Of a stretch of DNA of 64,000 bases, positions 7,734-21,429 are shown in pieces. The notes beneath the pieces were generated by a model. It ran no database searches. It was not told the origin of the DNA and saw nothing but the letters and a program-made list of their open reading frames with translations. Source of the stretch: Bacteroidota bacterium. Its GTDB lineage: Bacteria > Bacteroidota > Bacteroidia > Cytophagales > Cyclobacteriaceae. The translations under genes were made by a program, and so were the position numbers. The DNA lies in contig JBPXJU010000023.1 of the NCBI GenBank assembly GCA_051715445.1, positions 171,914-235,913 of the forward strand, read 5' to 3'. Position 1 is the stretch's first letter. The number at the start of each line of letters is the position of its first letter.

Positions 7734-8165
7734 TTACAAATTCTCCTTCACAAATTGTTGGCAATAGGTTTTAATCTCCCCTCGTACTGCGCGAAATTGT
7801 TCCATTATTTCTGATTCTGTTCCGGTTGATTTAGCAGGATCACGAAAGTTGTGGTGAAACTTTTTTGCTTTTGAAGGGAAAATCGGGCAATGTTCTTTTG
7901 CGTTGTCGCACACGGTTATTACAAAATCAAAATCGAGATGTTGGTATTCATTTACGTGATTGGAGGTGTGGTGCGAAATATCTATACCATCTTCTTTCAT
8001 GGTGGCAATGGCCCGAGGATTAACACCGTGCGTTTCAATACCAGCACTGTACACAGTGGCTTTATCACCAGCAAAATATTTCAGGTAACCATCAGCAATC
8101 TGGCTACGGCAACTATTGCCTGTGCATAATACGAGGATGTTTTTTTGATTCATAGGTTTAAACAA
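7734..8165 (-). CDS. arsC: thioredoxin-type arsenate reductase (LMW-PTP fold)
   Basis: CTGNSCRSQ P-loop, TVCD....CP redox Cys pair, FRDP; downstream of arsM/arsR. Confidence 0.9.
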   Translation of the reverse strand: MFKPMNQKNILVLCTGNSCRSQIADGYLKYFAGDKATVYSAGIETHGVNPRAIATMKEDGIDISHHTSNHVNEYQHLDFDFVITVCDNAKEHCPIFPSKAKKFHHNFRDPAKSTGTESEIMEQFRAVRGEIKTYCQQFVKENL

Positions 8166-8278
8166 CTAACCAAACGATATTGATGATGCAAAATTTAGGA
8201 TCGAATCCGAAAGCAACTTGTACTACAATTACCGATGTGGTAATCACAATTGGCTTTCGATACTTTTTGAAGAAAGTT

Positions 8279-9115
8279 TTAATTGCAGCAATCTGTTCCA
8301 CAGCAGGATTTTATTTTTTCGGCATAAACAGTGATACTGAAAATACCAGTAGCTCCGGCTCTGAATTCAGCAAGTTGTTCTTCATTTAAATATTGATTCA
8401 GAATATCATCGGGTAAAGTAATTGCCTTTTCTTTCTGTATGGTGATGTTGCTAAAGCCATTCGTTTTAATCAGGCTAAGGTATTCTTCTTTTTGGATAGC
8501 ACCCGAAACACAGCCTGCATATAATTCAGCATCTTTTTGCAATGCCTCGGGAAGTTCGCCAACCAACACAATATCCGAAATGCTAAAGTGACCACCCGTT
8601 TTTAATACGCGGAAGATTTCTTTGAACACGCCATCTTTGTTGGGAACAAGATTTAGCACACAATTGCTTACCACTACATCGGCTATGTTTGCTGAAACGG
8701 GCATCTGCTCAATATCGCCTAGCCTGAATTCAACATTTTGAAAACCAAGTTTAGCTGCATTGGCTTTTGCTTTTTCGATCATAGCTGGGGTAAAATCTAT
8801 GCCGATAACCCGACCATCTTCTCCGGCTTCCGCACGGGCAACGAAACAATCATTGCCAGCTCCGCTTCCCAGATCAATTACAGTATTTCCTTTCTTTATT
8901 TTCGCAAATTGTGTAGGCAGTCCGCAACCTAAACCCAGATCGGCATCGGGATTATAACCATCTAATTGGCCATAATCATCACTCATAATAGTAGTTACTT
9001 CAGTGGAACAACTGCCAGATCCGCAACATGATGATTGATTGGTTTCTTTATCCTGCAAAGCGATAGTGCTGTACTTTTGTTTTACAATCTCTTTTAGTTG
9101 ATCCTCGGTTTTCAT
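8279..9115 (-). CDS. arsM: arsenite S-adenosylmethionine methyltransferase
   Basis: Start at MKTEDQ (ATG 9115); SSCCG, LGLGCG, DLGSGAG, SNCVLNL, YAGCVSGA, Cys-rich tail SCCGTDCCN. Confidence 0.93.
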   Translation of the reverse strand: MKTEDQLKEIVKQKYSTIALQDKETNQSSCCGSGSCSTEVTTIMSDDYGQLDGYNPDADLGLGCGLPTQFAKIKKGNTVIDLGSGAGNDCFVARAEAGEDGRVIGIDFTPAMIEKAKANAAKLGFQNVEFRLGDIEQMPVSANIADVVVSNCVLNLVPNKDGVFKEIFRVLKTGGHFSISDIVLVGELPEALQKDAELYAGCVSGAIQKEEYLSLIKTNGFSNITIQKEKAITLPDDILNQYLNEEQLAEFRAGATGIFSITVYAEKIKSCCGTDCCN

Positions 9116-9131
9116 AGCAATGTATTTAAGT

Positions 9132-9461
9132 TTAACAACATGTATTTTTCTTTTGAAGTTTAGTTGAAATGTCAGCAAAGTATTCCTGAAGTTTTGAGAT
9201 GCCTTTTTCGTCAATACAATAGCAGATGGCGTTACCTTCTACATTACCTTTAATCAGGCCTGCATTTTTTAACTCTTTCAAATGTTGCGAAATGGTGGGC
9301 TGCGCAAGCGGTAGTTCATTCACAATATCTCCGCAAATGCAGGTATCTACTTTAATCAGGTATTCAATAATGGCAACGCGGGCAGGGTGGCCCAATGCTT
9401 TGGTTAGGGTAGCAATTCCGTTTTGCTTACTGGTAAAAGAGGATGTTTTGCTGGCGCCCAT
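9132..9461 (-). CDS. arsR: ArsR/SmtB family repressor
   Basis: ALGHPAR, CICGD, LAQPTISQHLKELK winged HTH, ICYC, C-terminal CC; heads ars operon. Confidence 0.9.
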   Translation of the reverse strand: MGASKTSSFTSKQNGIATLTKALGHPARVAIIEYLIKVDTCICGDIVNELPLAQPTISQHLKELKNAGLIKGNVEGNAICYCIDEKGISKLQEYFADISTKLQKKNTCC

Positions 9462-9471
9462 TGATTTATTT

Positions 9472-9487
9472 TAATATTGCAATATTA
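9472..9487. promoter_or_regulatory. probable ArsR operator
   Basis: Perfect 16-bp palindrome TAATATTGCAATATTA, 10 bp upstream of the arsR ATG. Confidence 0.65.
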
Positions 9488-9596
9488 CGATATAGTTTAC
9501 ATATTGAGTTGTACATCACGAGTTTTTCTTCAAAAAATTTAAAATCTTAGCTGAAATGATGTTTTTTCAGGGCCAAGAAGGAATAGATTCTCAAAT

Positions 9597-11054
9597 TTAA
9601 TCCTCGCCCAAACTCAGGTTTCTCAATCCGGCTGCCCAATACAAGCTGGCTTTTTGTTTTTCGAACTCCGCCCGAAGTTTCAGTAACTTGGATTGGGATT
9701 GAATGAGCTTTTCCTGTTGCACATTGATTTTGAATAAATCACTTTCACCATTTTCCAGATTCAGTAGTTCACCCTGCAGCAGGCGTTGGTAATTAGCAGC
9801 CATTAAATTTTGCTGTTGCAATAACGTATTGGTATTTACCAGCTGGTTAAACGTGGCTTGTACCTGGTTTAAGATTTCGCGTTCAGTTTGAGTGCGTTCG
9901 TAAGTTGTGTTTTGAATTTTTAACCGCGTTTGGGCAACCTTGGCGCGCTCTTTCCGCAAAAGAATAGGCATATAAAAATCTAACCCGAATTTATAATTAT
10001 TCAGAAAAGTAAAAGTTTGAAACTCACCCGTGGGACGTAAAGGCTGGTTAAGAAAATTATAGTTCAGGTTCAGTCTTGGTTTTAAATATTCGGTGGCGAG
10101 TTTACGATCGATCTCCAGTTGATCAAGCTTAACGGAAAGTTTTTGCAGTTCAGGATGGTTTGTGGTAGCAAGTTTTAATAATTGCTCCAATGCAGCATTT
10201 GATAGTATTTCCGGCTCGCCAATGGGTTGTGGAGCAAGTCTTGCTGAAATCTGTAGTGGATTACCAACAGAATCCCACAAATGGTTGGAAAGCTTAACAG
10301 ATGAATTGATCAGATCCAGGTAAGCTTCTTGTCGCTCTACCTGCCGTTGCTGGCGGGTTATGTCGGCCTGCAGTGTATCCAGTCCGCTGGCTTCACCCAA
10401 CTGCTCGTTCAACCTAACTCTTCTGAAAATTTCTTCTGCAATTTGAGCGTTGCGGGTGTTAAGTTGATAATTGAAGTAAGCATAATACCATTGCCAGTAA
10501 TCCTTTGCTGCTTCCAATAAAATCTTGTTAATCAGTTTTACTTGTTCAGCTTCTGCAAGGGTAATACCCAGTTGTGCTTGTTTAAGGGTGGCTCTTCGTT
10601 CGTCTGTAAACAACCCGCGACCAATTGGTAAAGAAAGTCCTGCAAATAATTGCCGGTTGTAATCTTCATCGGGTAATTGATTTTCAATGCTCAGGTAGGT
10701 ACCGGTGTTGCGTTCAATTCCAACTTTAGGATCAACCGGAAACCAGGTAGGTACCGTAAACGACCCATACCATTTATTGTAATATTCTTTTTGATCGTAC
10801 TCTTTCAGGTTGCCTTGTACTTCTATTTTCGGATCGAAGGCACCACGCGCAAAACGGATATCCTGCCGGGCCACCTCGCTCAGTAACTCAGCTTGTTTAA
10901 TAAGCGGATGATACTGCCACATGGATGCATACAGATTATTAAGCGTAAAGGTTGTTACACTATCGGGTACCTGTAATGCATCCGTTAAAGCAGTTTGTGC
11001 CAGGCAGCTAACCGAACTCCATATAAACAACCCTATGAAGAATAGACGCTTCAT
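9597..11054 (-). CDS. TolC family outer membrane channel
   Basis: Signal peptide, helical repeats, RGAFDPK, GLSLPIGRG, GLDFYMPI, GESDLF. Confidence 0.9.
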   Translation of the reverse strand: MKRLFFIGLFIWSSVSCLAQTALTDALQVPDSVTTFTLNNLYASMWQYHPLIKQAELLSEVARQDIRFARGAFDPKIEVQGNLKEYDQKEYYNKWYGSFTVPTWFPVDPKVGIERNTGTYLSIENQLPDEDYNRQLFAGLSLPIGRGLFTDERRATLKQAQLGITLAEAEQVKLINKILLEAAKDYWQWYYAYFNYQLNTRNAQIAEEIFRRVRLNEQLGEASGLDTLQADITRQQRQVERQEAYLDLINSSVKLSNHLWDSVGNPLQISARLAPQPIGEPEILSNAALEQLLKLATTNHPELQKLSVKLDQLEIDRKLATEYLKPRLNLNYNFLNQPLRPTGEFQTFTFLNNYKFGLDFYMPILLRKERAKVAQTRLKIQNTTYERTQTEREILNQVQATFNQLVNTNTLLQQQNLMAANYQRLLQGELLNLENGESDLFKINVQQEKLIQSQSKLLKLRAEFEKQKASLYWAAGLRNLSLGED

Positions 11055-12340
11055 TTTTTGTCGGTAGTTTTGTATTCCTGAGTAGCATTATTCATATCTA
11101 ATGGCTCTTCATATAAACTTGGCGGGAAACCGTTAAGCTGTCGCCAGATTTCGTACCACACCGGTACATCATCTAACATTACCCAACCCTGGGTGCCCGA
11201 ACCATTCCGGATTTTTTTCGGCCAAGGATCATCGTTTTTATCGGGTATAACCAGAATGCGAAACTCACCAGGCTTTGAATTCACATAGTCAATCACTTCT
11301 ACAGTTCCACCAAACGAACCCACTGACACGCTGGGCCAACCACTAAACTGCAGGGCTGGAAAACCATCAAACTCGATGCGTACATGCCGGCCCTTACTGA
11401 TCAGCGGAACATCCATTGCCTTTACATACATCTCTACGGCAACATCATTGGATTGTGGCATGATGGTACATACCGGCTCTCCTTCTTTTAATGTTTCGCC
11501 TATACCTGCACGCGCGGCCTTGACCACAAAACCATTTTGGGGCGCAAGAATAAAATATTGCTGACTGCGAATTTCCATGTTAGCCAACTCGTTGCGCAGT
11601 TTGGCCAACTCTGCCTGAGTGTCAAATTGCTCGGCAAGTGTATTACTCAGGTCCGAATCGGCTTTATTAATTTTATCTAAGTATTCAGCCTCTACCCGTT
11701 CTATTTCAATACGGGCATTAGTCAGATCAGCTTCAGCACCCTGATACTTATACTCCATGTCCTGATACTTGGTAAGTGGAATGTTTCCGGCCTCAAACAA
11801 TTTTTTGTTTCGCTCAAACTGATTTTTTGCGTTGGCAAATTTTACCTGCTCAGCTTCCAGTTTGGCTTTGGATTGTTCTATTTTAGTGCGCATCCCATCA
11901 CGCAAGGCATTGATTTGCTTTTGTAATGCTTTGGCTTTATCGTCTTTTGATCTTAAACTATTCTCTTTTGATGCAATTACTTCGCGCAAGCGCAGGAGCA
12001 ACTGGGGGTCAAAATATTTTTCTTTTACTTCGCTAACTACGGCAATGGTATCGCCTTTATTTACCAGTTGGCCCTCATTCACATTCCAGGTTTGAATTCG
12101 GCCGGCAATAACTGTTTCTACGGTTTGCGGGCGGTTGGCCGGATTAAGCGCAGTAACTTTACCATTACCCCGAATGTTTTGTTGCCAGGGAAGAAACAGG
12201 ATAATAAAGAAAACAACCCCTATGCCCATGAGCCAGCGCGCCAGTATCTTACCCGCCATGGGTGTGTTCAGCGAGCGCAAAGAATATAGCCGGTCTTGCG
12301 GCATCATTTTCTCTACTGAATTTGAGGATATCTTGAGCAT
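11051..12340 (-). CDS. HlyD family membrane fusion protein
   Basis: N-terminal TM, lipoyl half-motifs (IAGRI..W.VNEGQ.V.KGD; ILAPQNGFV), long coiled coil. Confidence 0.9.
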   Translation of the reverse strand: MLKISSNSVEKMMPQDRLYSLRSLNTPMAGKILARWLMGIGVVFFIILFLPWQQNIRGNGKVTALNPANRPQTVETVIAGRIQTWNVNEGQLVNKGDTIAVVSEVKEKYFDPQLLLRLREVIASKENSLRSKDDKAKALQKQINALRDGMRTKIEQSKAKLEAEQVKFANAKNQFERNKKLFEAGNIPLTKYQDMEYKYQGAEADLTNARIEIERVEAEYLDKINKADSDLSNTLAEQFDTQAELAKLRNELANMEIRSQQYFILAPQNGFVVKAARAGIGETLKEGEPVCTIMPQSNDVAVEMYVKAMDVPLISKGRHVRIEFDGFPALQFSGWPSVSVGSFGGTVEVIDYVNSKPGEFRILVIPDKNDDPWPKKIRNGSGTQGWVMLDDVPVWYEIWRQLNGFPPSLYEEPLDMNNATQEYKTTDKK

Positions 12341-12343
12341 CGG

Positions 12344-14515
12344 TTAGGCGATTAAATCTTTCAACAATTCTTTTTTAGTTAACTCCTCCATGGTGCCCTC
12401 GTGTTGTACTATACCTTCGTCTAATACAAGTACCCGATCGCACGCACTCATGATCAAAGGATCTTTCGACACAATAATTACTGTCCACGGGTGGTTAGGC
12501 TGCGTAATGCATTTGAGCAACTCTAACTTGTCGGTTTTGGCAAGCGGTGTAAAGAAGTCGTTCAGCACTAAAAGTTGTGGTTTTTTAGCCAGGCATCGGG
12601 CCAGAATAAGTTTTTGAATAACTGTTTTGGTTAATCCTTTACCACCGCTAATAATCGGTGTGTCTAATCCTTTCGGCAGGGCATTGATGGTGTCGCTTAA
12701 TCCTACTTGTTGCAGGGCATAAATGGCATCATGCACCGAGGTAGTTATGCGGCCCAGTGTAATGTTTTCAAGTATGGTACCATCAAACAGATCTTCCTGC
12801 GAAATGTTTTTGGCAACCTGATCACGTAAATGTGTAAGATCAATATCGCGCAAGGAATAATTGTTGATGGTAACCACGCCTTCATAATCGGTGTATAAGC
12901 CGGTAAGCAGATTCATCAATGTAGTTTTGCCTGAGTTTCCTTGCCCGGTAATGCAAATTGTTTCTCCCGGTTTAATGTCCAGGTTAATTCCCTTTAATGC
13001 ATAATAGCCGGAAGCACTGTACCGGTATTTCAAATCCCGGGTGCGTACATGAAAGCCTCCGGTTTGGGCAACCGGAAAATCAAGACCGCCTGTTTTTTCA
13101 ATAGGCAAATCGGTAACCTGTGCTACTTTATCTACAGCCGTTAATAAATCATACACCACATCCATGTACATGATAATTTTTTCTACTGCATTTAGAGTTA
13201 AGATGATTACGATTTCGGAAGCAACAAACTGCCCGAGTGTAATCTGGCGATCAACCACCAGCAGTGTACCCATAATTAACAGTCCTCCGGTAATTAAGGC
13301 TTTAAATATTACAATGAAGGAAAACTGTGTGACCAGCACCCGGAAATGGACCTTTCGGTTTTTAAGGTAGTTGTTTAAGTTATAGTCAGTTTTACGAATG
13401 GGCAAATCCGTACTACCGGCCAGCTTAAATGAATGCAAAGCGCGACCCAACTCTTCCAGCCAATGGGCAACTTTGTATTTGTATTTAGATTCTTCAATGC
13501 TTGAACTTAAACCGCGTGGTCCGGTGAGCGAGAAAATTAACGCCAGCATGAGTAACAACACCAGTCCAAAGAAAACAAAGAAGGGGTGGTACAATGAAAT
13601 CAGTAACAACCCGAATAAAATTTGAATGACTGCTGATGAAAGGTCAATTAAAAGTTTGGGTAATCCTTTTTGAATATTAACTACATCAAAAAACCGATTG
13701 ATTAATTCCGGGGCATAGTTACGTTGCAGGGCTTCCATGCGAATACGCGGAATGCGAAAGGCAAATTCCAGCGATGCTTTGGTAAAAATTCTTCGTTGCA
13801 GAAATTCCACCAGACTAATTTGTACAACCTGCAATCCTCCACTTAACAATACACCCAGAATAACAAGGGTAATGAGTACGTAAACCGAACTGAAAAATAC
13901 ACCACCCGAAATAAGTTCAACGGTGGTTTGAATACCCAATGGAATTACCAACCCTATTAAACCGATGATAATGGCATAAAACAGGATGTAAAAAATTTCT
14001 TTTTTCTCGGTGCCGAGTAGCCGGAGTAATCGCTTAAAGGGTGTTGGAGCCTTACCATCCGTAGGTTCCATACTAACCGGGCTTTCATAATTGAACACGG
14101 CAAAGAATTCAACTTCATCAAGGCCCGTGGTATGTAAGGGCAGATTCTCTATGGAATGAAATTCTTCTGTACTGTCTGTTTCGCTCTCAATATAGATGGC
14201 TGAGATTTTTTTTCGCTTTTCAGGCGAAAGAAGAACCGGATAAATATGATTTCGCCTTTTTACAAACGTAAGAATAGGTGCGGTTTGGTTGGTAAAGAAT
14301 TCTTCAAAGGCTGTACGCTCTAACCGGTAAGGCATAAATAACATGCGCATGGCATTGCCGGCTTCAACCAGATCGCGCTTAAACTCAGTTAAATCTTCTT
14401 CGCTATAGGTGCGCTGATTAGCTTCTACTGCATGCAAATCTTCCGAAGCATAATCATGCTTCAACTTAAACGCTACTTCGCGCAGGCACCTAACAATCTG
14501 ATCGTTATTGAGCAT
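12344..14515 (-). CDS. type-I-secretion-like ABC transporter (N-terminal extra domain + TMD + degenerate NBD)
   Basis: About 6 TM, Walker A GQGNSGKT, Q-loop SQE; signature, Walker B, D-loop and H-switch are non-canonical. Confidence 0.88.
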   Translation of the reverse strand: MLNNDQIVRCLREVAFKLKHDYASEDLHAVEANQRTYSEEDLTEFKRDLVEAGNAMRMLFMPYRLERTAFEEFFTNQTAPILTFVKRRNHIYPVLLSPEKRKKISAIYIESETDSTEEFHSIENLPLHTTGLDEVEFFAVFNYESPVSMEPTDGKAPTPFKRLLRLLGTEKKEIFYILFYAIIIGLIGLVIPLGIQTTVELISGGVFFSSVYVLITLVILGVLLSGGLQVVQISLVEFLQRRIFTKASLEFAFRIPRIRMEALQRNYAPELINRFFDVVNIQKGLPKLLIDLSSAVIQILFGLLLISLYHPFFVFFGLVLLLMLALIFSLTGPRGLSSSIEESKYKYKVAHWLEELGRALHSFKLAGSTDLPIRKTDYNLNNYLKNRKVHFRVLVTQFSFIVIFKALITGGLLIMGTLLVVDRQITLGQFVASEIVIILTLNAVEKIIMYMDVVYDLLTAVDKVAQVTDLPIEKTGGLDFPVAQTGGFHVRTRDLKYRYSASGYYALKGINLDIKPGETICITGQGNSGKTTLMNLLTGLYTDYEGVVTINNYSLRDIDLTHLRDQVAKNISQEDLFDGTILENITLGRITTSVHDAIYALQQVGLSDTINALPKGLDTPIISGGKGLTKTVIQKLILARCLAKKPQLLVLNDFFTPLAKTDKLELLKCITQPNHPWTVIIVSKDPLIMSACDRVLVLDEGIVQHEGTMEELTKKELLKDLIA

Positions 14516-14520
14516 GGGTA

Positions 14521-15192
14521 TCAGCTTATGGATTTAAACAATAATGACTCAAGAAATTTTTCTAACTCATGTTGACGGTCGTCACTCTTACCCAGATTGG
14601 TAAGGGCTGGTAAATGTTCTGCAAAAAATACCTGTTGTTTGGCCGTAAGTAAAAGCGTACTGATTAAGGCGTGCGGGTAAGGATAGGCCGGATTAATTTC
14701 AGCCACCCAGCCACCAATTTTTTTACATAACAACTTGAAGCCGCCAAACAAACCCTCTCGGTTATCGCTGTCAACCTGTTTGGTTAAATAGGTTTTATCA
14801 AGTTCGGCCACCACAATTCTATGCAGCGCTACCTCATCAATAAAATCGAACGTATCGTCAAACTTTTTTTCAGAGGCTACCACTTTAATGCAGGCCTTAA
14901 GCTTTTCTTGTGGTGTGGCCAGATTGCTGGTAAATACTTCAATGCGGTATTCTAACCAGGTCCAGTACCAGCCTGTCAGGTATAACAAAAGCCGGTGTTT
15001 GTTTTCGAAATAGCGGTAGACAGATGCTTCGGTCGAGTCGATTTCTTCGGCTAGTTTTTTAAATGTGAATTGCTCGAAGCCGAGTGTATCAATCAGTCTT
15101 ACACTGGTGCTGATAATCTTCTGGCCAAGTTCAGTCTGCTGGGGGTCGCGCAGGTATAAATGAGGATTTAATCTAAAGTAGAGAGTTGCCAT
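14521..15192 (-). CDS. TetR/AcrR family regulator
   Basis: GFEQFTFKKLAEEIDSTEASVYRYFENK HTH; first gene of the operon. Confidence 0.92.
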   Translation of the reverse strand: MATLYFRLNPHLYLRDPQQTELGQKIISTSVRLIDTLGFEQFTFKKLAEEIDSTEASVYRYFENKHRLLLYLTGWYWTWLEYRIEVFTSNLATPQEKLKACIKVVASEKKFDDTFDFIDEVALHRIVVAELDKTYLTKQVDSDNREGLFGGFKLLCKKIGGWVAEINPAYPYPHALISTLLLTAKQQVFFAEHLPALTNLGKSDDRQHELEKFLESLLFKSIS

Positions 15193-15195
15193 TTT

Positions 15196-15252
15196 GATAA
15201 CAAAACTATCTTTATTGATAGTAATACTATCTTAACTGATAGTATTAGTAAA
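15196..15252. promoter_or_regulatory. three phased TetR operator-like sites overlapping a -7 promoter element
   Basis: GATAACAAAACTATC (15196), perfect GATAGTAATACTATC (15217), GATAGTATTAGTAAA (15238); minus-strand TAGTTTTG at 15208-15201. Confidence 0.65.
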
Positions 15253-15310
15253 ATGTTTCAAAAGGCTTGAAAAATTCTTTCAAAACCCCATTTTTCATCA
15301 AAATGGAGGG

Positions 15311-16096
15311 TTAAATCCCGCTTTCGCGAATCAGGATAAAGAGGCCCATAGCTAAGGTAAGCCAGCCAAAAGCCTTGCGCAGATAAGCAGCAGGTCGCTT
15401 GCGGGCTATGGCATGGCCAGCCAGAATTCCACCCACAGCCAGGGCGGTTATGGTAAGTAAAAAAGACCAATCGATGGCATGCGTAAGTACATCGCCCAAA
15501 AAACCGAGCAAGGAATTAATGGCTATTATAAATAGCGAAGTACCTACCGCTATTTTAAAATTGAGTCCGGTTAGAAATATCAGTGCGGGTATAATCAGAA
15601 ACCCGCCACCGGCACCCACCAGGCCGGTTAAAAAGCCGATCAGGATTCCCTGCACAACTACCAGAAATGTGCGGAAGCGCGTGTGCTTCGCTTCGGGCTC
15701 CTTTCGGTTTTTAATCATAGAGAAAGAAGCAAGAACCATTAAAATACCAAATAGCCCCAACAGCAGTGCCCGTTTGGTAAGGGTAAACGATTCGGTTTGA
15801 AAAACAATTTCAGGTATAGCCGGTACAATCCATTTACGTGTGCTGAATATGGCTACAATGGAAGGAATGCCAAACAGAATTCCGGTTCGAAGATTAACAA
15901 GGTGCTCGCGGTATTTGGGAATAGCGCCTACCAAACTGGTTGTGCCTACAATGAACAACGAATAAGCTGACGCCATTACCGGTTCGATACCAAACAGGTA
16001 AACTAATATAGGAATGGAAAGGATAGAACCACCGCCACCTAACGCACCTAAAACCATACCCACCGCAATGGCAGCAAAATATCCGAGTATTTCCAT
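15311..16096 (-). CDS. TSUP (TauE/SafE) family permease
   Basis: GALGGGGSILSIP and GLVGAGGGFLIIP repeats, AVGTSL; start MEILGY. Confidence 0.9.
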   Translation of the reverse strand: MEILGYFAAIAVGMVLGALGGGGSILSIPILVYLFGIEPVMASAYSLFIVGTTSLVGAIPKYREHLVNLRTGILFGIPSIVAIFSTRKWIVPAIPEIVFQTESFTLTKRALLLGLFGILMVLASFSMIKNRKEPEAKHTRFRTFLVVVQGILIGFLTGLVGAGGGFLIIPALIFLTGLNFKIAVGTSLFIIAINSLLGFLGDVLTHAIDWSFLLTITALAVGGILAGHAIARKRPAAYLRKAFGWLTLAMGLFILIRESGI

Positions 16097-16112
16097 TATA
16101 ACAGCATCGCAA

Positions 16113-16808
16113 TTAAAGGCGACTGTAATCCACAATAAACGAATCGGGGAATTTCTTTTTTACTTCAGTTAGTAATTCATCGGCTTTGGGTCGCGTGCTT
16201 AAAGGCCCAAGTATTAAACTATAATACTTTACTCCGTTAATCACCTTTACCTGCACCATTACATTTTTCTTATACGAGTTCTTCAGGTTGTCGGAAAGGC
16301 GCATCAGGTTAACCAACTCCTGATAGGTTCCTATCTGCACGCCAAAGCCTTTGGGCAGTAATCGAGTTATACCAAAATCGTAAAATTCTTTTTCTTCTAC
16401 GGTAACGTGATCAATACTTACCGGGCCTTCGCCTTTATTGGCTCTGCTTTTGCCATCTCCGGCATCAATCACTTCAATTTTTACTTCGGCTATACCTTGG
16501 TTAATAAAACCAAGCTTTTCCGCTGCCGATTTTGAAAGATCGATAATCCGGCCTTCCACATACGGGCCGCGGTCGTTAATTACCACTTCAACGGTTTCGT
16601 TGTTGGCCAGGTTGGTAACTTTTACTTTAGTGCCGAACGGAAGAGTTTTATGGGCCGCTGTAAGTTTGGAGTGTTTATACTTCTCTCCACTGGCTGTAGG
16701 GCTGCCTTCAAATTTGTCGGCATAGAATGAAGCCTTTCCGGTTTGGGTCTGCGCCAGCACAACTCCGGTTGCGCAAATGGCAAAAAATAGCAAGACGAGT
16801 TTTTTCAT
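16113..16808 (-). CDS. rlpA: septal ring lytic transglycosylase RlpA with C-terminal SPOR-like domain
   Basis: GKASFY, TASGE, TAAHKTLPFGT, INDRGP, IIDLS; GFGVQIG SPOR start. Confidence 0.9.
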   Translation of the reverse strand: MKKLVLLFFAICATGVVLAQTQTGKASFYADKFEGSPTASGEKYKHSKLTAAHKTLPFGTKVKVTNLANNETVEVVINDRGPYVEGRIIDLSKSAAEKLGFINQGIAEVKIEVIDAGDGKSRANKGEGPVSIDHVTVEEKEFYDFGITRLLPKGFGVQIGTYQELVNLMRLSDNLKNSYKKNVMVQVKVINGVKYYSLILGPLSTRPKADELLTEVKKKFPDSFIVDYSRL

Positions 16809-18581: not shown

Positions 18582-20645
18582 GTGTTTAAAACGAAAGCAA
18601 TTATCAGATTACTTTTTCTAGGCTCTATAATAGCCTGGCTGGTATTGGTGTTTGCAGACATCACGGTATTGTATAGCGAAATCCGGCAGTTGCCACCGGG
18701 GGTGCCTAAGTGGCTGCCCAGCTTAATGCTGGATTTATTTATTGTTTGTCTGTTCTATTATTACCGTTACCGGATCGAGAAAGATGAGAGCCTGAGTTTT
18801 ACCGATCTGCTGTGGAAAGTATTTGCCACCGGGTTAATTGCCACAGTTGTTTCATTGGTGTTCCGGTTAGGTGAGTTTTTATTAGGCACAACCAAGCTGG
18901 CATCCGATCCTTTATTCAAGGATTTTATCTATCAGATCAACCTTGCCTTATTCTTAAGCTTTTTGTTGTCAGCCTATACCTCCTGGAAAAGGCTTATTCT
19001 CTATCAAAAATCAAAGTGGCTTATTCGTACCTGGATGGTATTTGAGTTGTGCCTGTTTCTTACTCTGCTCTACGATAGTCTTCAACTTTCATTTTCGCCT
19101 ACAGCCAACACCATCATCATTATAATAATTGCCTTGCTGGTAATTGTGCTTTCGGCCAATATGCGTTGGGTGGCTTATCTGAACTTTAAGCAAAAATGGA
19201 CCAGCCTTTTACTTTTGTTGCTTTCCTTCTTTTACCTGGGCTACTTTCTGTTTACGGTCAATTCCCTTTCGGCATTTATCAACGCAGCCGATCCCTCCTT
19301 TCAGGACTTCAGCAGTCATATTTTTAATGTGTGCCTGCTGTGCTTTGTAATGGTGTATAGCATTTTTTCTTTTCTGGTTATTTTGTTCAACCTGCCTACT
19401 TCATCTGTGTTTGAACAAAAACTGGAAGAGGTAATAAACTTTCAACGGATCAGTCAGTCAATTCAAACCGAACAGAATGAAGAAAGCGTTTATAATATTT
19501 TATTGGAGAGTTCGGTTAGTGCTGTATTTGCCGATGCCGCCTGGCTAGAGATTGAAAGCGCAAGCAATGGCAACAAATTTTTTACCTATAAAATTACCGA
19601 ACAGGAGTCGCTACAAATCCGCAACCACCTCAAACAAAATAATGTAAAGGGAGCACTGGATCAGAGTAGCGATAAAACAAAGAATTTGTCCAAATACCTG
19701 GCATCGCTAAAAGGTGTGCGCTTCCGTTCGCTCATTGCATTTCCTATAATAGTGAAAGGTGAAACAATTGGTACCCTTGCGTTATTAAAAGAATTGCCCG
19801 AAGGTTTCAACAAAGAAATGATGCGCATTGTATCGGCATTTGCAAACCAGGCCGGTATTTCTATTGAGAACTTCCGGCTGATGGAGCAGGCTTTTCAAAC
19901 AGAGCGTTACAAAGAGGAACTAAAAATTGCGAAGACAGTACAAAAGAGTTTGCTGCCAACAAAACTGGAAAATGATCCGGACTTCGAAATTTCTGCTTTC
20001 GCACAATCAGCCGATGAGGTGGGTGGTGATTATTATGACACACTACGCATAAACGACCATCAGGTAGCGCTTATCATTGCCGATGTTTCGGGTAAGGGAA
20101 CAAGTGCGGCCTTCCACATGTCGCAGATGAAAGGAATTTTTCATAGTCTGGCACAGCAGGAACTGGAACCAAAAGAATTTATGGAACGCGCCAACAAAGC
20201 GTTGGCATTTTGTCTGGAACGAGGATCATTTATTTCGGCCACTTATTTTGTGGTAGATACCAAAACAAAAACCATTCGCTACTCGCGTGCAGGGCATTGC
20301 CCGGTGTTGTATTACAAAGCCAGCGAAAATAAAACCCAATACCTGAAAGACAGAGGCACTGCATTAGGAATGGTGCGCACCCGCGATTATAGCCGGTTGG
20401 TAGAAAACAACGAAGTGCAGTATGCTCCGGGCGATGTAATGGTTCTGTACACCGATGGAATTACCGAAGCAAAAAACACAAAAGGTGAAGAGTTTGATTA
20501 TGACCGGCTGGAGGCTGCGTTACGCGAAGTAGCTGAAAAAAGTTCCCAGCAAATTGAAAAACATATTATCTCGCGGTTGTATGAGTTTTCAGGCTCTACA
20601 CTGATAAATGACGACTATACGTCTATGACAATAAAGTTCAGGTAA
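18582..20645 (+). CDS. membrane-bound SpoIIE/RsbU-like PP2C phosphatase with GAF domain
   Basis: About 8 N-terminal TM segments, GAF-like region, VGGDYYD, IADVSGKG, RAGHCP, LYTDGITE, DDYT; GTG start. Confidence 0.9.
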   Translation: MFKTKAIIRLLFLGSIIAWLVLVFADITVLYSEIRQLPPGVPKWLPSLMLDLFIVCLFYYYRYRIEKDESLSFTDLLWKVFATGLIATVVSLVFRLGEFLLGTTKLASDPLFKDFIYQINLALFLSFLLSAYTSWKRLILYQKSKWLIRTWMVFELCLFLTLLYDSLQLSFSPTANTIIIIIIALLVIVLSANMRWVAYLNFKQKWTSLLLLLLSFFYLGYFLFTVNSLSAFINAADPSFQDFSSHIFNVCLLCFVMVYSIFSFLVILFNLPTSSVFEQKLEEVINFQRISQSIQTEQNEESVYNILLESSVSAVFADAAWLEIESASNGNKFFTYKITEQESLQIRNHLKQNNVKGALDQSSDKTKNLSKYLASLKGVRFRSLIAFPIIVKGETIGTLALLKELPEGFNKEMMRIVSAFANQAGISIENFRLMEQAFQTERYKEELKIAKTVQKSLLPTKLENDPDFEISAFAQSADEVGGDYYDTLRINDHQVALIIADVSGKGTSAAFHMSQMKGIFHSLAQQELEPKEFMERANKALAFCLERGSFISATYFVVDTKTKTIRYSRAGHCPVLYYKASENKTQYLKDRGTALGMVRTRDYSRLVENNEVQYAPGDVMVLYTDGITEAKNTKGEEFDYDRLEAALREVAEKSSQQIEKHIISRLYEFSGSTLINDDYTSMTIKFR

Positions 20646-20681
20646 ACAATAAAAAAATAAAAACGTTAAAAAGAGTAACCC

Positions 20682-21032
20682 ATGGTTCACATTAAACGAT
20701 TACAGGAAGATGGCGCAGATATTATCTCAGTAATAGGAGAAATTGACGCAAGTTCTTCTATAGAGTTAGATTTGGCCATTGCGAAAAGCGTGGGCGAGGG
20801 CTTTAAAAAAATTCTGGTGGACTGCAGTGCGCTGGAATATATTTCCTCTGCCGGGTTAGGGGTTTTTATGTCGTACATAGAAGAGTTGAGAGACAAAAAT
20901 ATTCCAATGGTGTTGTTTGGTATGAAGGAGAAGGTAGCGAATACGTTTAGCATTTTAGGTCTGGCCGAATTGTTGCATATCGCTCCAACCAAGCCGGAAG
21001 CAAAGAAATTGGCCGATGAATTATCAGTATAA
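20682..21032 (+). CDS. STAS domain anti-sigma antagonist (RsbV/SpoIIAA-like)
   Basis: GEIDAS, VDCSALEYISSAGLG with phosphorylatable Ser. Confidence 0.9.
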   Translation: MVHIKRLQEDGADIISVIGEIDASSSIELDLAIAKSVGEGFKKILVDCSALEYISSAGLGVFMSYIEELRDKNIPMVLFGMKEKVANTFSILGLAELLHIAPTKPEAKKLADELSV

Positions 21033-21429
21033 CATAGGGTGTAGCCTCAGCAACCTGAAGGGCATTCGCGAGTTTGTTAGAACTTCGCTGAAGGACCAGC
21101 AGGTGCCTGAGATTGAAATGAGCGCAATTGTGCTGGCGTTAGACGAAATGTGTTCTAACCTGATGATCCACGCGCATCATTGTAATCCTGATCACATGCT
21201 GGAGTTGCATATCGATATTCCGGCAAGGGGAAAGTTTATTTTCGAAATTGTGGACGATGGCTCTTTATTCAATATAAATGAGTTTCATGAGCCCGATCTG
21301 GGCAACCTGGTTCACCAAAAACGCAAGGGCGGTTTAGGCATAAGGCTGGTAAAGGCCATAATGGACAACGTGGAGTATCTGAAACGGGACGAAAAGAACG
21401 TCTGTCGCCTTACCAAGATCATTAAATAG
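21016..21429 (+). CDS. RsbW/SpoIIAB-like anti-sigma serine kinase (HATPase_c_2)
   Basis: LALDEMCSN N-box, DDG, GGLGIRLV. Confidence 0.88.
   Translation: MNYQYNIGCSLSNLKGIREFVRTSLKDQQVPEIEMSAIVLALDEMCSNLMIHAHHCNPDHMLELHIDIPARGKFIFEIVDDGSLFNINEFHEPDLGNLVHQKRKGGLGIRLVKAIMDNVEYLKRDEKNVCRLTKIIK

What the first reader, a model, noticed from the sequence alone, without database searches (positions are those of the whole stretch)
12344..14515. Sole ABC subunit of a T1SS-like operon looks ATPase-dead
Seen: Walker A (GQGNSGKT) and the Q-loop are intact, but signature LSGGQ reads LTKTV, Walker B hhhhDE reads LVLND, D-loop SALD reads TPLA and the H-switch reads VSKD. The N-terminal extra domain lacks the C39 QxxxxDCG motif. 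Known: such degeneracy normally marks the inactive half of a heterodimer that has a canonical partner. No partner is encoded here, so this may be an export or sensing machine that binds but does not hydrolyse ATP, uses a distant partner, or uses another energy source. This is the best candidate for an uncharacterised system. The degeneracy may be shared across the family in Bacteroidota.
Basis: partly seen in the sequence, partly recalled or inferred. Interest (0 to 1): 0.7.

Follow-up and report, generated by a model that had tools for sequence, protein, structure and literature searches.

The report
ATPase-dead ABC pump family in Bacteroidota
This gene encodes the only ABC subunit of a TetR-controlled three-part envelope exporter, and across Bacteroidota it has lost the residues needed to burn ATP while staying under strong selection, so the pump probably uses some other energy source.

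Summary
The 723-aa ORF lies on the minus strand at 12344-14515. It keeps the A-loop Tyr, Walker A and the Q-loop Gln. The signature reads LTKTV, Walker B LLVLND, the D-loop TPLA and the H-switch VSKD. It sits in a tightly packed operon, TetR > ABC > HlyD-type adaptor > TolC-type channel, and there is no other ABC domain in the 64 kb.

The degeneracy is a family trait. None of 118 close homologues or 144 representatives at 37-60% identity has LSGGQ, and none combines Walker B DE, the H-loop His and the Q-loop Gln. 23 of 144 have no basic residue at the Walker A lysine position. The membrane domain is far better conserved than the NBD, including a near-invariant TM6 Glu. The NBD is still under purifying selection (dN/dS about 0.02-0.05).

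In 81 related loci, nearly all from Bacteroidota, ABC>HlyD>TolC is conserved with a single ABC gene. No cargo gene or partner is conserved. A shared TetR operator is present in 36 of 84 loci.

The Walker B/H-loop side and the signature side are both degenerate, so even a canonical partner would not restore a consensus ATP site.

Best reading: a homodimeric pseudo-ATPase exporter. The energy source is inferred, most likely proton-motive force, and is untested.

The parts
15217..15231 (.). 15-bp palindrome GATAGT-ATT-ACTATC, the probable TetR operator. It sits inside a larger array of half-sites, ACTATC-N6-GATAGT-ATT-ACTATC-N6-GATAGT, at 15205-15243.
   Evidence: RATAGT-N3-ACTATY occurs once in the 64 kb (0.02 expected). 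It is present in 36 of 84 related loci. In 33 of them it occurs at a single place, just upstream of the TetR gene or, where no TetR is adjacent, just upstream of the ABC gene.
15201..15208 (-). TAGTTTTG, a match to the Bacteroidota -7 promoter box TAnnTTTG. It lies 9 nt upstream of the TetR ATG and overlaps the last operator half-site.
   Evidence: Sequence read. The promoter consensus comes from established knowledge of Bacteroidetes promoters. This is an inference, not a test.
14521..15192 (-). TetR-family repressor gene (223 aa), first gene of the operon.
   Evidence: Pfam TetR_N, E = 4.5e-8. A TetR homologue lies directly upstream of the ABC gene in 39 of 81 related loci.
12344..14515 (-). 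ABC exporter-fold protein (723 aa): C39-like domain, six-helix TMD and a degenerate NBD.
   Evidence: Pfam ABC_membrane and ABC_tran. AF2 model pLDDT 86, with PCAT1 and HlyB as the best Foldseek hits. All NCBIfam hits fall far below their cut-offs.
14051..14515 (-). N-terminal C39-like domain (aa 1-155) without catalytic Cys or His.
   Evidence: About half of the family lacks this domain altogether.
13106..14038 (-). Transmembrane domain (aa 160-470), the most conserved part of the protein.
   Evidence: 53 positions are at least 90% conserved across 145 sequences, against 8 in the NBD. Mean identity to the query is 51%, against 33% for the NBD.
13214..13216 (-). Codon of E434 in TM6 (motif QFVASEIVI), a membrane-embedded carboxylate in the periplasmic half of the helix.
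   Evidence: Glu in 143/144 representatives and 80/81 genome loci. It aligns to Asn in ComA. Its position in TM6 follows from the DSSP and hydropathy segments.
12347..13048 (-). Nucleotide-binding domain (aa 490-723). The fold residues are kept and the catalytic residues are lost.
   Evidence: dN/dS is 0.024-0.05.
13019..13021 (-). A-loop Tyr499, intact.
   Evidence: Y in 115/118 close homologues, with His in the other three. Y or F in 106/145 sequences of the representative alignment, query included.
12923..12946 (-). Walker A GQGNSGKT, intact.
   Evidence: The pattern G....GK[ST] is kept in 109/118 close homologues, but only in 83/144 representatives.
12620..12634 (-). Signature position reads LTKTV instead of LSGGQ.
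   Evidence: LSGG[QE] is present in 0/118, 0/144 and 0/81 sequences.
12557..12574 (-). Walker B reads LLVLND: the Walker B Asp is Asn and the catalytic Glu is Asp.
   Evidence: The dipeptide is ND in 112/118 and NE in 6/118 close homologues.
12539..12550 (-). D-loop position reads TPLA instead of SALD.
12461..12472 (-). H-switch position reads VSKD, with Lys in place of His. It is part of a family-specific S-(N/K)-D-P motif.
   Evidence: His is present in 0/118 close homologues and 18/144 representatives.
11051..12340 (-). HlyD-type membrane-fusion (adaptor) protein, 429 aa, with one N-terminal TM helix (aa about 33-54) and a long coiled-coil.
   Evidence: Pfam HlyD_3 and HlyD_D23; TIGR01843 at 95 bits. 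Hydropathy. The weak PDB matches are EmrA, LipC and HlyD. It starts 3 nt after the ABC stop codon.
9597..11054 (-). TolC-type outer-membrane factor, 485 aa, with a signal peptide. Its start overlaps the adaptor's stop codon by 4 nt.
   Evidence: Pfam OEP, E = 3.7e-35. Gene junction ATGA.

Best explanation
The locus is a self-contained, TetR-repressed tripartite exporter that spans the cell envelope. Its inner-membrane component has the ABC-exporter fold with a C39-like N-terminal domain. It works with a HlyD-type adaptor and a TolC-type outer-membrane channel.

The inner-membrane component is most likely a homodimer, and both of its composite nucleotide sites lack the residues that catalyse ATP hydrolysis. 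It is therefore a pseudo-ATPase.

Its NBD is kept under purifying selection. In this lineage it still carries the A-loop Tyr and an intact P-loop. It probably binds nucleotide without hydrolysing it and acts as a dimerisation or regulatory module coupled to the membrane domain.

The energy for export would then come from elsewhere. The most likely source is the proton-motive force, acting through the highly conserved membrane domain. The leading candidate coupling residue is the near-invariant membrane-embedded Glu434 in TM6.

The substrate is probably a small molecule sensed by the TetR repressor, not a dedicated protein cargo.

Shown here: the anatomy, the operon, the family-wide loss of catalytic motifs, selection on the NBD, the absence of a linked partner or cargo gene, and the conserved operator.

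Inferred: loss of hydrolysis, the homodimer, non-hydrolytic nucleotide binding, proton coupling and the type of substrate.
For: Anatomy and operon:
-.

Loss of catalytic motifs:
- The motifs are lost in this protein.
- They are fixed in 118 close homologues.
- Among 144 representatives at 37-60% identity, 0 have LSGGQ, 17 have the Q-loop Gln, 18 have the H-loop His, and none has DE+H+Q together. 23 lack a basic residue at the Walker A Lys position.

Reversed conservation pattern:
- The TMD has 53 positions at least 90% conserved, against 8 in the NBD. The 8 are fold-core Gly, Asn, Arg and Pro residues.

Selection on the NBD:
- dN/dS is 0.024-0.05 for the NBD, so it is not decaying.
- Retention of Walker A correlates with retention of an acidic Walker B residue (odds ratio 8.7, p = 2e-6). 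Nucleotide/Mg binding is therefore kept or lost as a unit.

Genomic context:
- 81 related loci, nearly all from Bacteroidota, were compared. Nearly all keep ABC>HlyD>TolC with one ABC gene. A second ABC gene lies within 10 kb in only 4, and never in a conserved position.
- No neighbour other than TetR is conserved, and no conserved small ORF was found.
- A conserved palindromic operator is present.

TM6 glutamate:
- E434 is Glu in 143/144 and 80/81 sequences, and ComA has Asn at the aligned position.

Precedents for ion-coupled transport in this fold:
- LmrA's membrane domain works as a secondary-active translocator and needs E314 in TM6 (PMC6155054).
- MsbA transport is proton-coupled (PMC4979069).
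- SbmA is a proton-driven transporter structurally related to the ABC TMD (PMC8442886, PMC13316013).

Direction of change:
- Near-canonical relatives in Ignavibacteria/Kapabacteria (LSTGE/LSTGQ, DE, His) suggest that the family descends from a working ATPase.
Against: - No biochemical data exist. Hydrolysis by non-canonical residues, for example D653 acting as a weak base, cannot be excluded from sequence alone.
- E434, E237 and the ICL1 motif PELxNRFFD are also present in the near-canonical relatives. They are family features, not adaptations that arose when the ATPase motifs were lost.
- The coupling-helix region is strongly conserved. That fits an NBD that still drives the TMD.
- The whole genome could not be searched for an unlinked partner.
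- Homodimer geometry was not modelled, because only monomer prediction was available.
- Transcription evidence is weak: contigs from one run labelled as a metatranscriptome.
Confidence: 0.5

Rival explanations
1. Residual, non-canonical ATP hydrolysis still powers the pump. The intact A-loop, P-loop and Q-loop bind Mg-ATP, and D653 or the family-specific S-x-D-P motif replaces the lost catalytic Glu and His. On this view it is a slow but genuine primary transporter.
For: - Walker A and the A-loop are strictly kept in the window's subfamily.
- The NBD is under purifying selection.
- The ICL1 coupling helix is highly conserved.
- S683 and D685 are invariant in close homologues.
- Walker A and Walker B acidity co-vary.
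Against: - Five catalytic elements are changed at once: the signature, the Walker B Asp, the catalytic Glu, the D-loop and the H-loop. From established ABC enzymology, single changes at these positions reduce ATPase activity to near zero, for example HlyB H662A and E-to-Q mutants.
- 23/144 representatives lack the Walker A Lys, and several lack the whole P-loop, yet they keep the TMD and the operon.
- The Q-loop Gln is kept in only 17/144.
Confidence: 0.2
2. It is the inactive half of a heterodimer whose canonical partner is encoded elsewhere in the genome.
For: - Degenerate motifs are typical of heterodimeric exporters such as TM287/288, TmrAB and MsRv1273c/72c, which are among the Foldseek hits.
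- The rest of the genome could not be inspected.
Against: - Known heterodimer pairs are encoded side by side. Here one ABC gene is conserved in 81 loci across the phylum.
- The Walker B/H-loop side and the signature side are both degenerate, so neither composite site would be a consensus site even with a perfect partner.
- There is no ABC paralogue in 64 kb.
Confidence: 0.1
3. It is not an energised pump. The ABC-fold protein is a gated channel, a sensor, or a scaffold that holds the adaptor-TolC duct. It lets a substrate move down its gradient, or signals nucleotide status, in the manner of CFTR or SUR.
For: - The catalytic motifs are lost while the nucleotide-binding determinants are kept.
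- The TMD is very strongly conserved.
- No cargo gene is linked.
Against: - A three-component duct under a TetR repressor with a conserved operator looks like an inducible efflux system.
- Passive release into the medium through TolC would be an unusual arrangement.
- There is no direct evidence either way.
Confidence: 0.15
4. The NBD is a decaying relic, or the gene is a pseudogene.
For: The NBD evolves about 3 times faster than the TMD at non-synonymous sites, and it is less conserved than the TMD.
Against: - dN/dS for the NBD is 0.024-0.05.
- The ORF is intact in hundreds of species.
- All full-length family members keep the NBD and its fold-core residues.
- The model is confident throughout.
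Confidence: 0.02

Closest known systems
HlyB/HlyD/TolC-type type 1 secretion systems and PCAT exporters (PCAT1, ComA)
   Same: - Same three-component operon logic: ABC, MFP and OMF.
- Same overall fold. Foldseek matches are HlyB 8dck_A (TMq 0.74) and PCAT1 (E = 2e-31).
- The N-terminal domain has the C39-like fold, and like the HlyB CLD it lacks the catalytic Cys.
   Different: - All catalytic ATPase motifs except Walker A and the Q-loop are lost.
- Scores are far below the NCBIfam T1SS and PCAT cut-offs: 140-188 bits against 510-853.
- There is no linked RTX or GG-leader cargo.
- A TetR repressor is linked.
- The TMD, not the NBD, is the conserved part.
Heterodimeric ABC exporters with one degenerate site (TM287/288, TmrAB, BmrCD, MsRv1273c/72c)
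   Same: - Type IV exporter fold.
- Non-canonical catalytic Glu (Asp) and H-loop, as in their degenerate subunit.
- They are good structural matches.
   Different: - Those are two adjacent genes with one fully consensus site. Here there is a single gene.
- Here both sides of the composite site are degenerate, so no consensus site can form.
SbmA/BacA (SLiPT) proton-driven peptide transporters
   Same: They show that the ABC-exporter-type membrane domain can run on the proton gradient without ATP hydrolysis (PMC8442886, PMC13316013). This is the proposed working analogy.
   Different: - SbmA has lost the NBD entirely, is an importer, and has no adaptor or TolC partner.
- This family keeps a full NBD.
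- No sequence relationship to SbmA was tested.
LmrA and MsbA ion-coupled transport
   Same: [quoted passage not shown]
- MsbA transport is proton-coupled (PMC4979069).
- The family here has a near-invariant TM6 Glu.
   Different: - LmrA and MsbA have fully canonical NBDs and hydrolyse ATP.
- Positional equivalence of E434 and LmrA E314 was not tested.
EmrAB-TolC and other TetR/MarR-regulated tripartite efflux pumps
   Same: - Repressor-controlled tripartite efflux with a non-lipoprotein, single-TM adaptor.
- EmrA is the best PDB sequence match of the adaptor, though weak at 31 bits.
   Different: The inner-membrane component there is an MFS transporter, not an ABC-fold protein.

Membership tests
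ABC transporter superfamily, type IV (B-family) exporter fold | Six-helix ABC_membrane TMD fused to an ABC_tran NBD. | tested here: met
   Pfam PF00664 (51 bits) and PF00005 (65.6 bits), both above cut-off. The AF2 model matches PCAT1, HlyB, Sav1866 and TM287/288.
Catalytically competent ABC ATPase | Walker A GxxGxGK[ST] and an A-loop aromatic residue. | tested here: met
   GQGNSGKT and Y499. Kept in 109/118 close homologues, but only in 83/144 representatives.
Catalytically competent ABC ATPase | Signature motif LSGGQ. | tested here: not met
   LTKTV. 0 of 343 family sequences have LSGG[QE].
Catalytically competent ABC ATPase | Walker B hhhhD followed by the catalytic Glu. | tested here: not met
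   LLVLND. ND or NE in 118/118 close homologues.
Catalytically competent ABC ATPase | H-loop His and D-loop SALD. | tested here: not met
   VSKD and TPLA. His is present in 18/144 representatives.
Catalytically competent ABC ATPase | Measured Mg-ATP hydrolysis. | not testable with these tools
   Needs purified protein.
Type 1 secretion system (HlyB/PrtD/LssB types) | ABC, HlyD-type MFP and TolC-type OMF encoded together. | tested here: met
Type 1 secretion system (HlyB/PrtD/LssB types) | Score above the curated family HMM cut-offs (TIGR01846, TIGR01842, TIGR03375; adaptor TIGR01843). | tested here: not met
   140, 137 and 186 bits against cut-offs of 726, 510 and 693. The adaptor scores 95 against 209.
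Type 1 secretion system (HlyB/PrtD/LssB types) | Linked secreted cargo (RTX or a C-terminal signal protein). | tested here: not met
   No gene family other than TetR is conserved within 6 kb in 81 loci. Unlinked cargo cannot be excluded.
Peptidase-containing ABC transporters (PCAT) | N-terminal C39 domain with catalytic Cys and His, and a GG-leader peptide substrate. | tested here: not met
   The fold is C39-like. No alignment column is invariant and no Cys or His is conserved. No Pfam Peptidase_C39 hit. No conserved upstream small ORF.
Heterodimeric ABC exporters with a degenerate site | Two adjacent half-transporter genes, one consensus ATP site and one degenerate site. | tested here: not met
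   A single ABC gene in the window and in nearly all 81 loci. Both contributions to the composite site are degenerate.
SbmA-like (SLiPT) secondary transporters | TMD-only protein driven by the proton gradient. | tested here: not met
   A full NBD is present. Proton coupling is not testable here. This is a working analogy only, not a membership claim.
TetR-regulated efflux operon | TetR_N HTH repressor gene adjacent to the pump, with a palindromic operator at the promoter. | tested here: met
   TetR_N. The palindrome is unique in the window (0.02 expected) and is positionally conserved in 36 of 84 loci. Binding itself was not tested.

The most novel reading that the evidence does not exclude
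A phylum-wide family of ABC-fold tripartite exporters has given up ATP hydrolysis and runs on the proton-motive force, or another non-ATP source. Its NBD survives as a non-hydrolytic nucleotide sensor or dimerisation module. That would make it a living evolutionary intermediate between primary ABC exporters and NBD-less secondary transporters such as SbmA. It would also be the first TolC-coupled pump of this kind.
Probability: 0.3. Interest if true: 0.85.

Novelty: new variant of a known kind. Interest (0 to 1): 0.66.

Why it matters
ABC exporters are defined by ATP hydrolysis at two composite sites. Known degenerate sites always sit beside a working one. A large family that has lost both sites, remains under strong selection and stays embedded in a conserved tripartite pump is a different situation.

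If the reading is right, the family gives a natural system for three questions:
- What can an NBD do without catalysis?
- Can the ABC-exporter fold be driven by ion gradients? This has been argued from LmrA and MsbA and shown for SbmA.
- How does a TolC-coupled duct get its energy in that case?

The family is also present in at least 588 of the species genomes scanned, nearly all of the loci examined being Bacteroidota, with no curated family model and only generic names. Its substrate is therefore likely to matter for Bacteroidota envelope physiology or efflux.

Tried and rejected
**Literature.** Five full-text searches looked for a prior description: degenerate ABC with Bacteroidetes/HlyD/TolC, homodimeric exporters with both sites degenerate, Bacteroidetes T1SS with TetR, Riemerella TolC/HlyD/ABC, and non-catalytic tripartite ABC. 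None found this family. The library lacks most subscription journals, so this is weak negative evidence.

**N-terminal domain.** Pfam and PDB sequence searches of this domain found nothing significant. Only structure prediction revealed the C39-like fold.

**Linked cargo or partner.** All-against-all clustering of about 1,500 neighbouring ORFs found no family in more than 10 of 81 loci. A search for conserved small ORFs upstream of TetR-less loci found only pairs from sister genomes.

**A-loop versus Walker A.** These do not co-vary (odds ratio 1.07), so this gives no support for coordinated loss. Walker A against Walker B does co-vary.

**H310 and Y309.** I tested whether these track loss of the ATPase motifs. 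They are absent from the three near-canonical relatives but also from eight degenerate ones, so this is suggestive only.

**Sigma-70 promoter and terminator scan.** Uninformative: 14 found against 14.1 expected.

**dS.** Near saturation even for the closest available orthologues. The dN/dS values are approximate, though they are clearly far below 1.

**Pseudogene reading.** Rejected on dN/dS and on ORF integrity.
Full report
**1. The observation**

The ORF at 12344-14515 is on the minus strand and encodes 723 aa.
- Walker A: GQGNSGKT (aa 524-531).
- Q-loop: Gln573.
- Signature position: LTKTV (628-632).
- Walker B position: LLVLND (648-653).
- D-loop position: TPLA (656-659).
- H-switch position: VSKD (682-685).

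The HMMER alignment to the NBDs of BSEP and ABCB1 puts these residues opposite LSGGQ, hhhhDE, SALD and the H-loop His. The A-loop Tyr (Y499) is also present.

Pfam finds ABC_membrane and ABC_tran above threshold. Every specific NCBIfam model is far below its cut-off. This includes the T1SS families HlyB, PrtD and LssB, the PCAT families and MsbA, at 137-188 bits against 510-853.

No other ABC domain exists in the 64-kb window.

**2. Operon**

Four genes are packed on the minus strand, with gaps of 5 and 3 nt and one 4-nt overlap:
- a TetR-family regulator (14521-15192);
- the ABC protein;
- a HlyD-type adaptor with one N-terminal TM helix and a long coiled-coil (11051-12340);
- a TolC-type outer-membrane factor with a signal peptide (9597-11054).

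Upstream of the TetR ATG lies the palindrome GATAGT-ATT-ACTATC (15217-15231), flanked by further half-sites. It overlaps TAGTTTTG, which matches the Bacteroidota -7 box.

The pattern RATAGT-N3-ACTATY occurs once in the window, against 0.02 expected. It is present in 36 of 84 related loci. In 33 of them it occurs at a single place, just upstream of the TetR gene or, in loci with no adjacent TetR, just upstream of the ABC gene. The module is therefore an old TetR regulon.

**3. Fold**

An AlphaFold2 model of the whole protein is confident (pLDDT 86). It shows an elbow helix, six long TM helices and an NBD. Its best Foldseek matches are PCAT1 (E = 2e-31), HlyB in the HlyB/D complex (TMq 0.74 over 725 columns), TM287/288, Sav1866 and TmrAB.

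The N-terminal 155 residues have no sequence match but model at pLDDT 92. They match the C39 peptidase domains of PCAT1 and ComA and a Vibrio C39-like domain, with TM 0.5-0.57 and E about 1e-2. An alignment of 30 such domains has no invariant column and no conserved Cys or His. It is therefore a catalytically dead C39-like domain, as in HlyB. About half of the wider family lacks it entirely.

**4. The degeneracy is a family character**

In 118 homologues of at least 64% identity, all from Cyclobacteriaceae/Cytophagales metagenomes or genomes:
- the Walker B Asp position is Asn in 118/118;
- the next residue is Asp or Glu;
- S683 and D685 are invariant;
- the H-loop His and LSGGQ never occur.

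An exhaustive HMMER search of 1.84 billion cluster representatives gave 150 top hits at 37-60% identity and 406-940 bits. The best canonical ABC proteins of the PDB score about 160 bits. Among 144 aligned representatives:
- none has LSGGQ;
- the Q-loop Gln survives in 17;
- the H-loop His survives in 18;
- none combines Walker B DE, the H-loop His and the Q-loop Gln;
- the full Walker A pattern survives in 83;
- 23 have no basic residue at the Walker A lysine position, and several have no recognisable P-loop.

Retention of Walker A is correlated with retention of an acidic Walker B residue (odds ratio 8.7, p = 2e-6). Mg-nucleotide binding therefore appears to be kept or lost as a unit. It is kept in most lineages, including this one in part, and abandoned in some.

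**5. Conservation is reversed relative to ordinary ABC transporters**

Across the representatives the TMD is 51% identical to the query and the NBD 33%. Among close homologues the figures are 87% and 71%.

53 TMD positions are at least 90% conserved, against 8 in the NBD. Those 8 are fold-core Gly, Asn, Arg and Pro residues that canonical NBDs also have.

Conserved TMD features include:
- the ICL1 coupling-helix motif PELxNRFFD;
- E237 at the cytoplasmic end of TM2;
- a polar cluster towards the periplasmic side: P192, Q196, Y309, H310, G428, Q429;
- Glu434 in TM6 (motif QFVASEIVI), which is Glu in 143/144 representatives and 80/81 genome loci.

ComA has Asn at the position aligned with E434.

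**6. The NBD is not decaying**

Nei-Gojobori estimates against orthologues of 95% and 90% amino-acid identity give dN/dS of 0.024-0.05 for the NBD. The TMD gives 0.013 and the C39-like domain 0.04-0.06. dS is near saturation, so the ratios are approximate, but they are clearly far below 1. The NBD therefore has a selected function that does not need the catalytic residues.

**7. Genomic context across the phylum**

A scan of one genome per species found at least 588 loci. The best 80, together with L001, make up the 81 loci compared. They come from Cytophagales, Flavobacteriales, Saprospiraceae/Lewinellaceae, Sphingobacteriales and Hymenobacteraceae, plus one Gemmatimonas.
- Nearly all have ABC>HlyD>TolC in that order with a single ABC gene.
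- 39 of 81 have the TetR gene directly upstream.
- A second ABC gene lies within 10 kb in only 4, at different positions and with weak similarity.
- Apart from TetR, no neighbouring gene family is shared by more than 10 of the 81 loci, and those loci are simply close relatives.
- No conserved small ORF precedes the TetR-less loci.

There is thus no linked cargo and no linked partner.

**8. Why a distant partner is unlikely**

In known heterodimeric exporters the degenerate subunit contributes non-canonical Walker B and H-loop residues but keeps a canonical signature motif, because that motif completes the partner's consensus site. This is established knowledge, for example for TM287/288 and TmrAB.

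Here both contributions are degenerate. With a perfect partner, one site would lack the catalytic residues and the other would lack the signature. Combined with the single-gene synteny, this makes the heterodimer reading the weakest option. It cannot be excluded without whole-genome data.

**9. Evolutionary direction**

Three representatives at the bottom of the hit list, P0250, P0252 and P0266, keep LSRGQ/LSTGE/LSTGQ, Walker B DE and the H-loop His. P0252 and P0266 cluster with proteins from Ignavibacteria/Kapabacteria. They share E434, E237 and PELxNRFFD, but lack H310, and the two most canonical also lack Y309 and Q196.

This suggests descent from a working ATPase, with erosion of catalysis inside Bacteroidota. 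It also means the TM6 Glu predates that erosion and is not a compensatory novelty. No rooted tree was made, so the direction is an inference.

**10. Mechanism**

Shown: a TetR-controlled, self-contained ABC-fold/adaptor/TolC module whose ABC component lacks the catalytic apparatus family-wide and is under selection.

Inferred: the protein works as a homodimer that cannot hydrolyse ATP by the canonical mechanism. In this lineage it probably still binds nucleotide, given the A-loop Tyr and P-loop, although the Walker B Asn would weaken Mg coordination.

A cycle of binding and releasing unchanged ATP supplies no net energy. Uphill export would therefore need another source. The most plausible one is the proton-motive force acting through the conserved TMD, with E434 as the candidate protonation site. 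Three precedents support this:
- LmrA's membrane domain acts as a secondary-active translocator and needs E314 in TM6 (PMC6155054).
- MsbA transport is proton-coupled (PMC4979069).
- SbmA is a proton-driven transporter with an ABC-type TMD (PMC8442886, PMC13316013).

The TetR control and the lack of cargo genes point to a small-molecule substrate.

My confidence is about 0.75 for the pseudo-ATPase homodimer part and about 0.3 for proton coupling.

**11. Rivals**
- Residual non-canonical hydrolysis (0.2).
- Gated channel, sensor or scaffold without energised transport (0.15).
- Unlinked canonical partner (0.1).
- Relic or pseudogene (refuted).

**12. Other evidence**

The sequence is found in wastewater, activated-sludge and bioreactor metagenomes. 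Contigs from one run labelled as a metatranscriptome cover parts of all four genes at low depth. This is weak evidence of expression, because DNA carry-over is possible.

**13. Novelty**

The held literature contains no description of this family. Public annotations are generic: 'ATP-binding cassette domain-containing protein' and 'ABC-type bacteriocin/lantibiotic exporter'. No curated HMM claims it.

I classify it as a new variant of a known kind, namely tripartite ABC-type exporters. If the energy-coupling inference holds, it could be something more.

Noticed in passing
window 7734-9461 (minus strand): Directly downstream of the TolC gene, on the same strand, is an arsenic cluster: ArsR-type HTH_5 regulator (9132-9461), arsenite methyltransferase ArsM (8279-9214; NF008823, 364 bits) and an LMWPc ArsC-type phosphatase/reductase (7734-8165). 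The same cluster follows the pump in L082 and L083 but not in L084 or L001, so it is not part of the module.
   Followed up: partly
window 18582-21429 (plus strand): A partner-switching module: a GAF-SpoIIE (PP2C) phosphatase (18582-20645), a STAS anti-anti-sigma protein (20682-21032) and a HATPase_c_2 anti-sigma kinase (21016-21429). It is syntenic in close relatives.
   Followed up: no
L024 9978-9992; L042 10016-10030; L052 9901-9915; L063 9927-9941; L068 9940-9954; L081 9911-9925: The palindrome RATAGT-N3-ACTATY sits directly in front of the ABC gene in loci with no TetR gene upstream. In L068 a TetR homologue lies downstream on the other strand. The family seems to be controlled by the same repressor type even when the repressor is unlinked.
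   Followed up: partly
proteins P0252, P0266, P0250 (Ignavibacteria/Kapabacteria clusters): These near-canonical relatives keep LSTGE/LSTGQ/LSRGQ, Walker B DE and the H-loop His. P0252 and P0266 carry a much longer N-terminal extension (about 260 aa, 832-840 aa in total). They may represent the ancestral, ATP-hydrolysing state of the family.
   Followed up: partly
proteins P0152, P0166, P0168, P0189, P0190, P0193; L074 (Gemmatimonas): This subgroup has Gln at the Walker A Lys position (Arg in L074) but keeps the H-loop His and a DD or DN Walker B. That is close to the opposite combination from the window's subfamily, so different lineages have dismantled the ATP site in different orders.
   Followed up: no
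window codons for Y309/H310 (about 13586-13591) and Q196: Y309, H310 and Q196, near the periplasmic face, are 92-98% conserved in the family. H310 is absent from all three near-canonical relatives, and Y309 and Q196 are absent from the two most canonical. H310 is also missing in eight degenerate members, so the link to loss of the ATPase motifs is only suggestive.
   Followed up: partly
window 15311-16808 (minus strand): A TauE/SafE-type permease (15311-16135) and an RlpA-like DPBB+SPOR lytic transglycosylase (16113-16808) lie upstream of the operon on the same strand. They are syntenic only in close relatives. In L082 the TauE gene is split into two ORFs.
   Followed up: no
window 9000-16000, run X18: Contigs from a sludge run labelled as a metatranscriptome, from a 95-99% identical strain, cover parts of TolC, the adaptor, the ABC gene and TetR at word depth 3-6. 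This is weak evidence that the operon is expressed in situ.
   Followed up: partly
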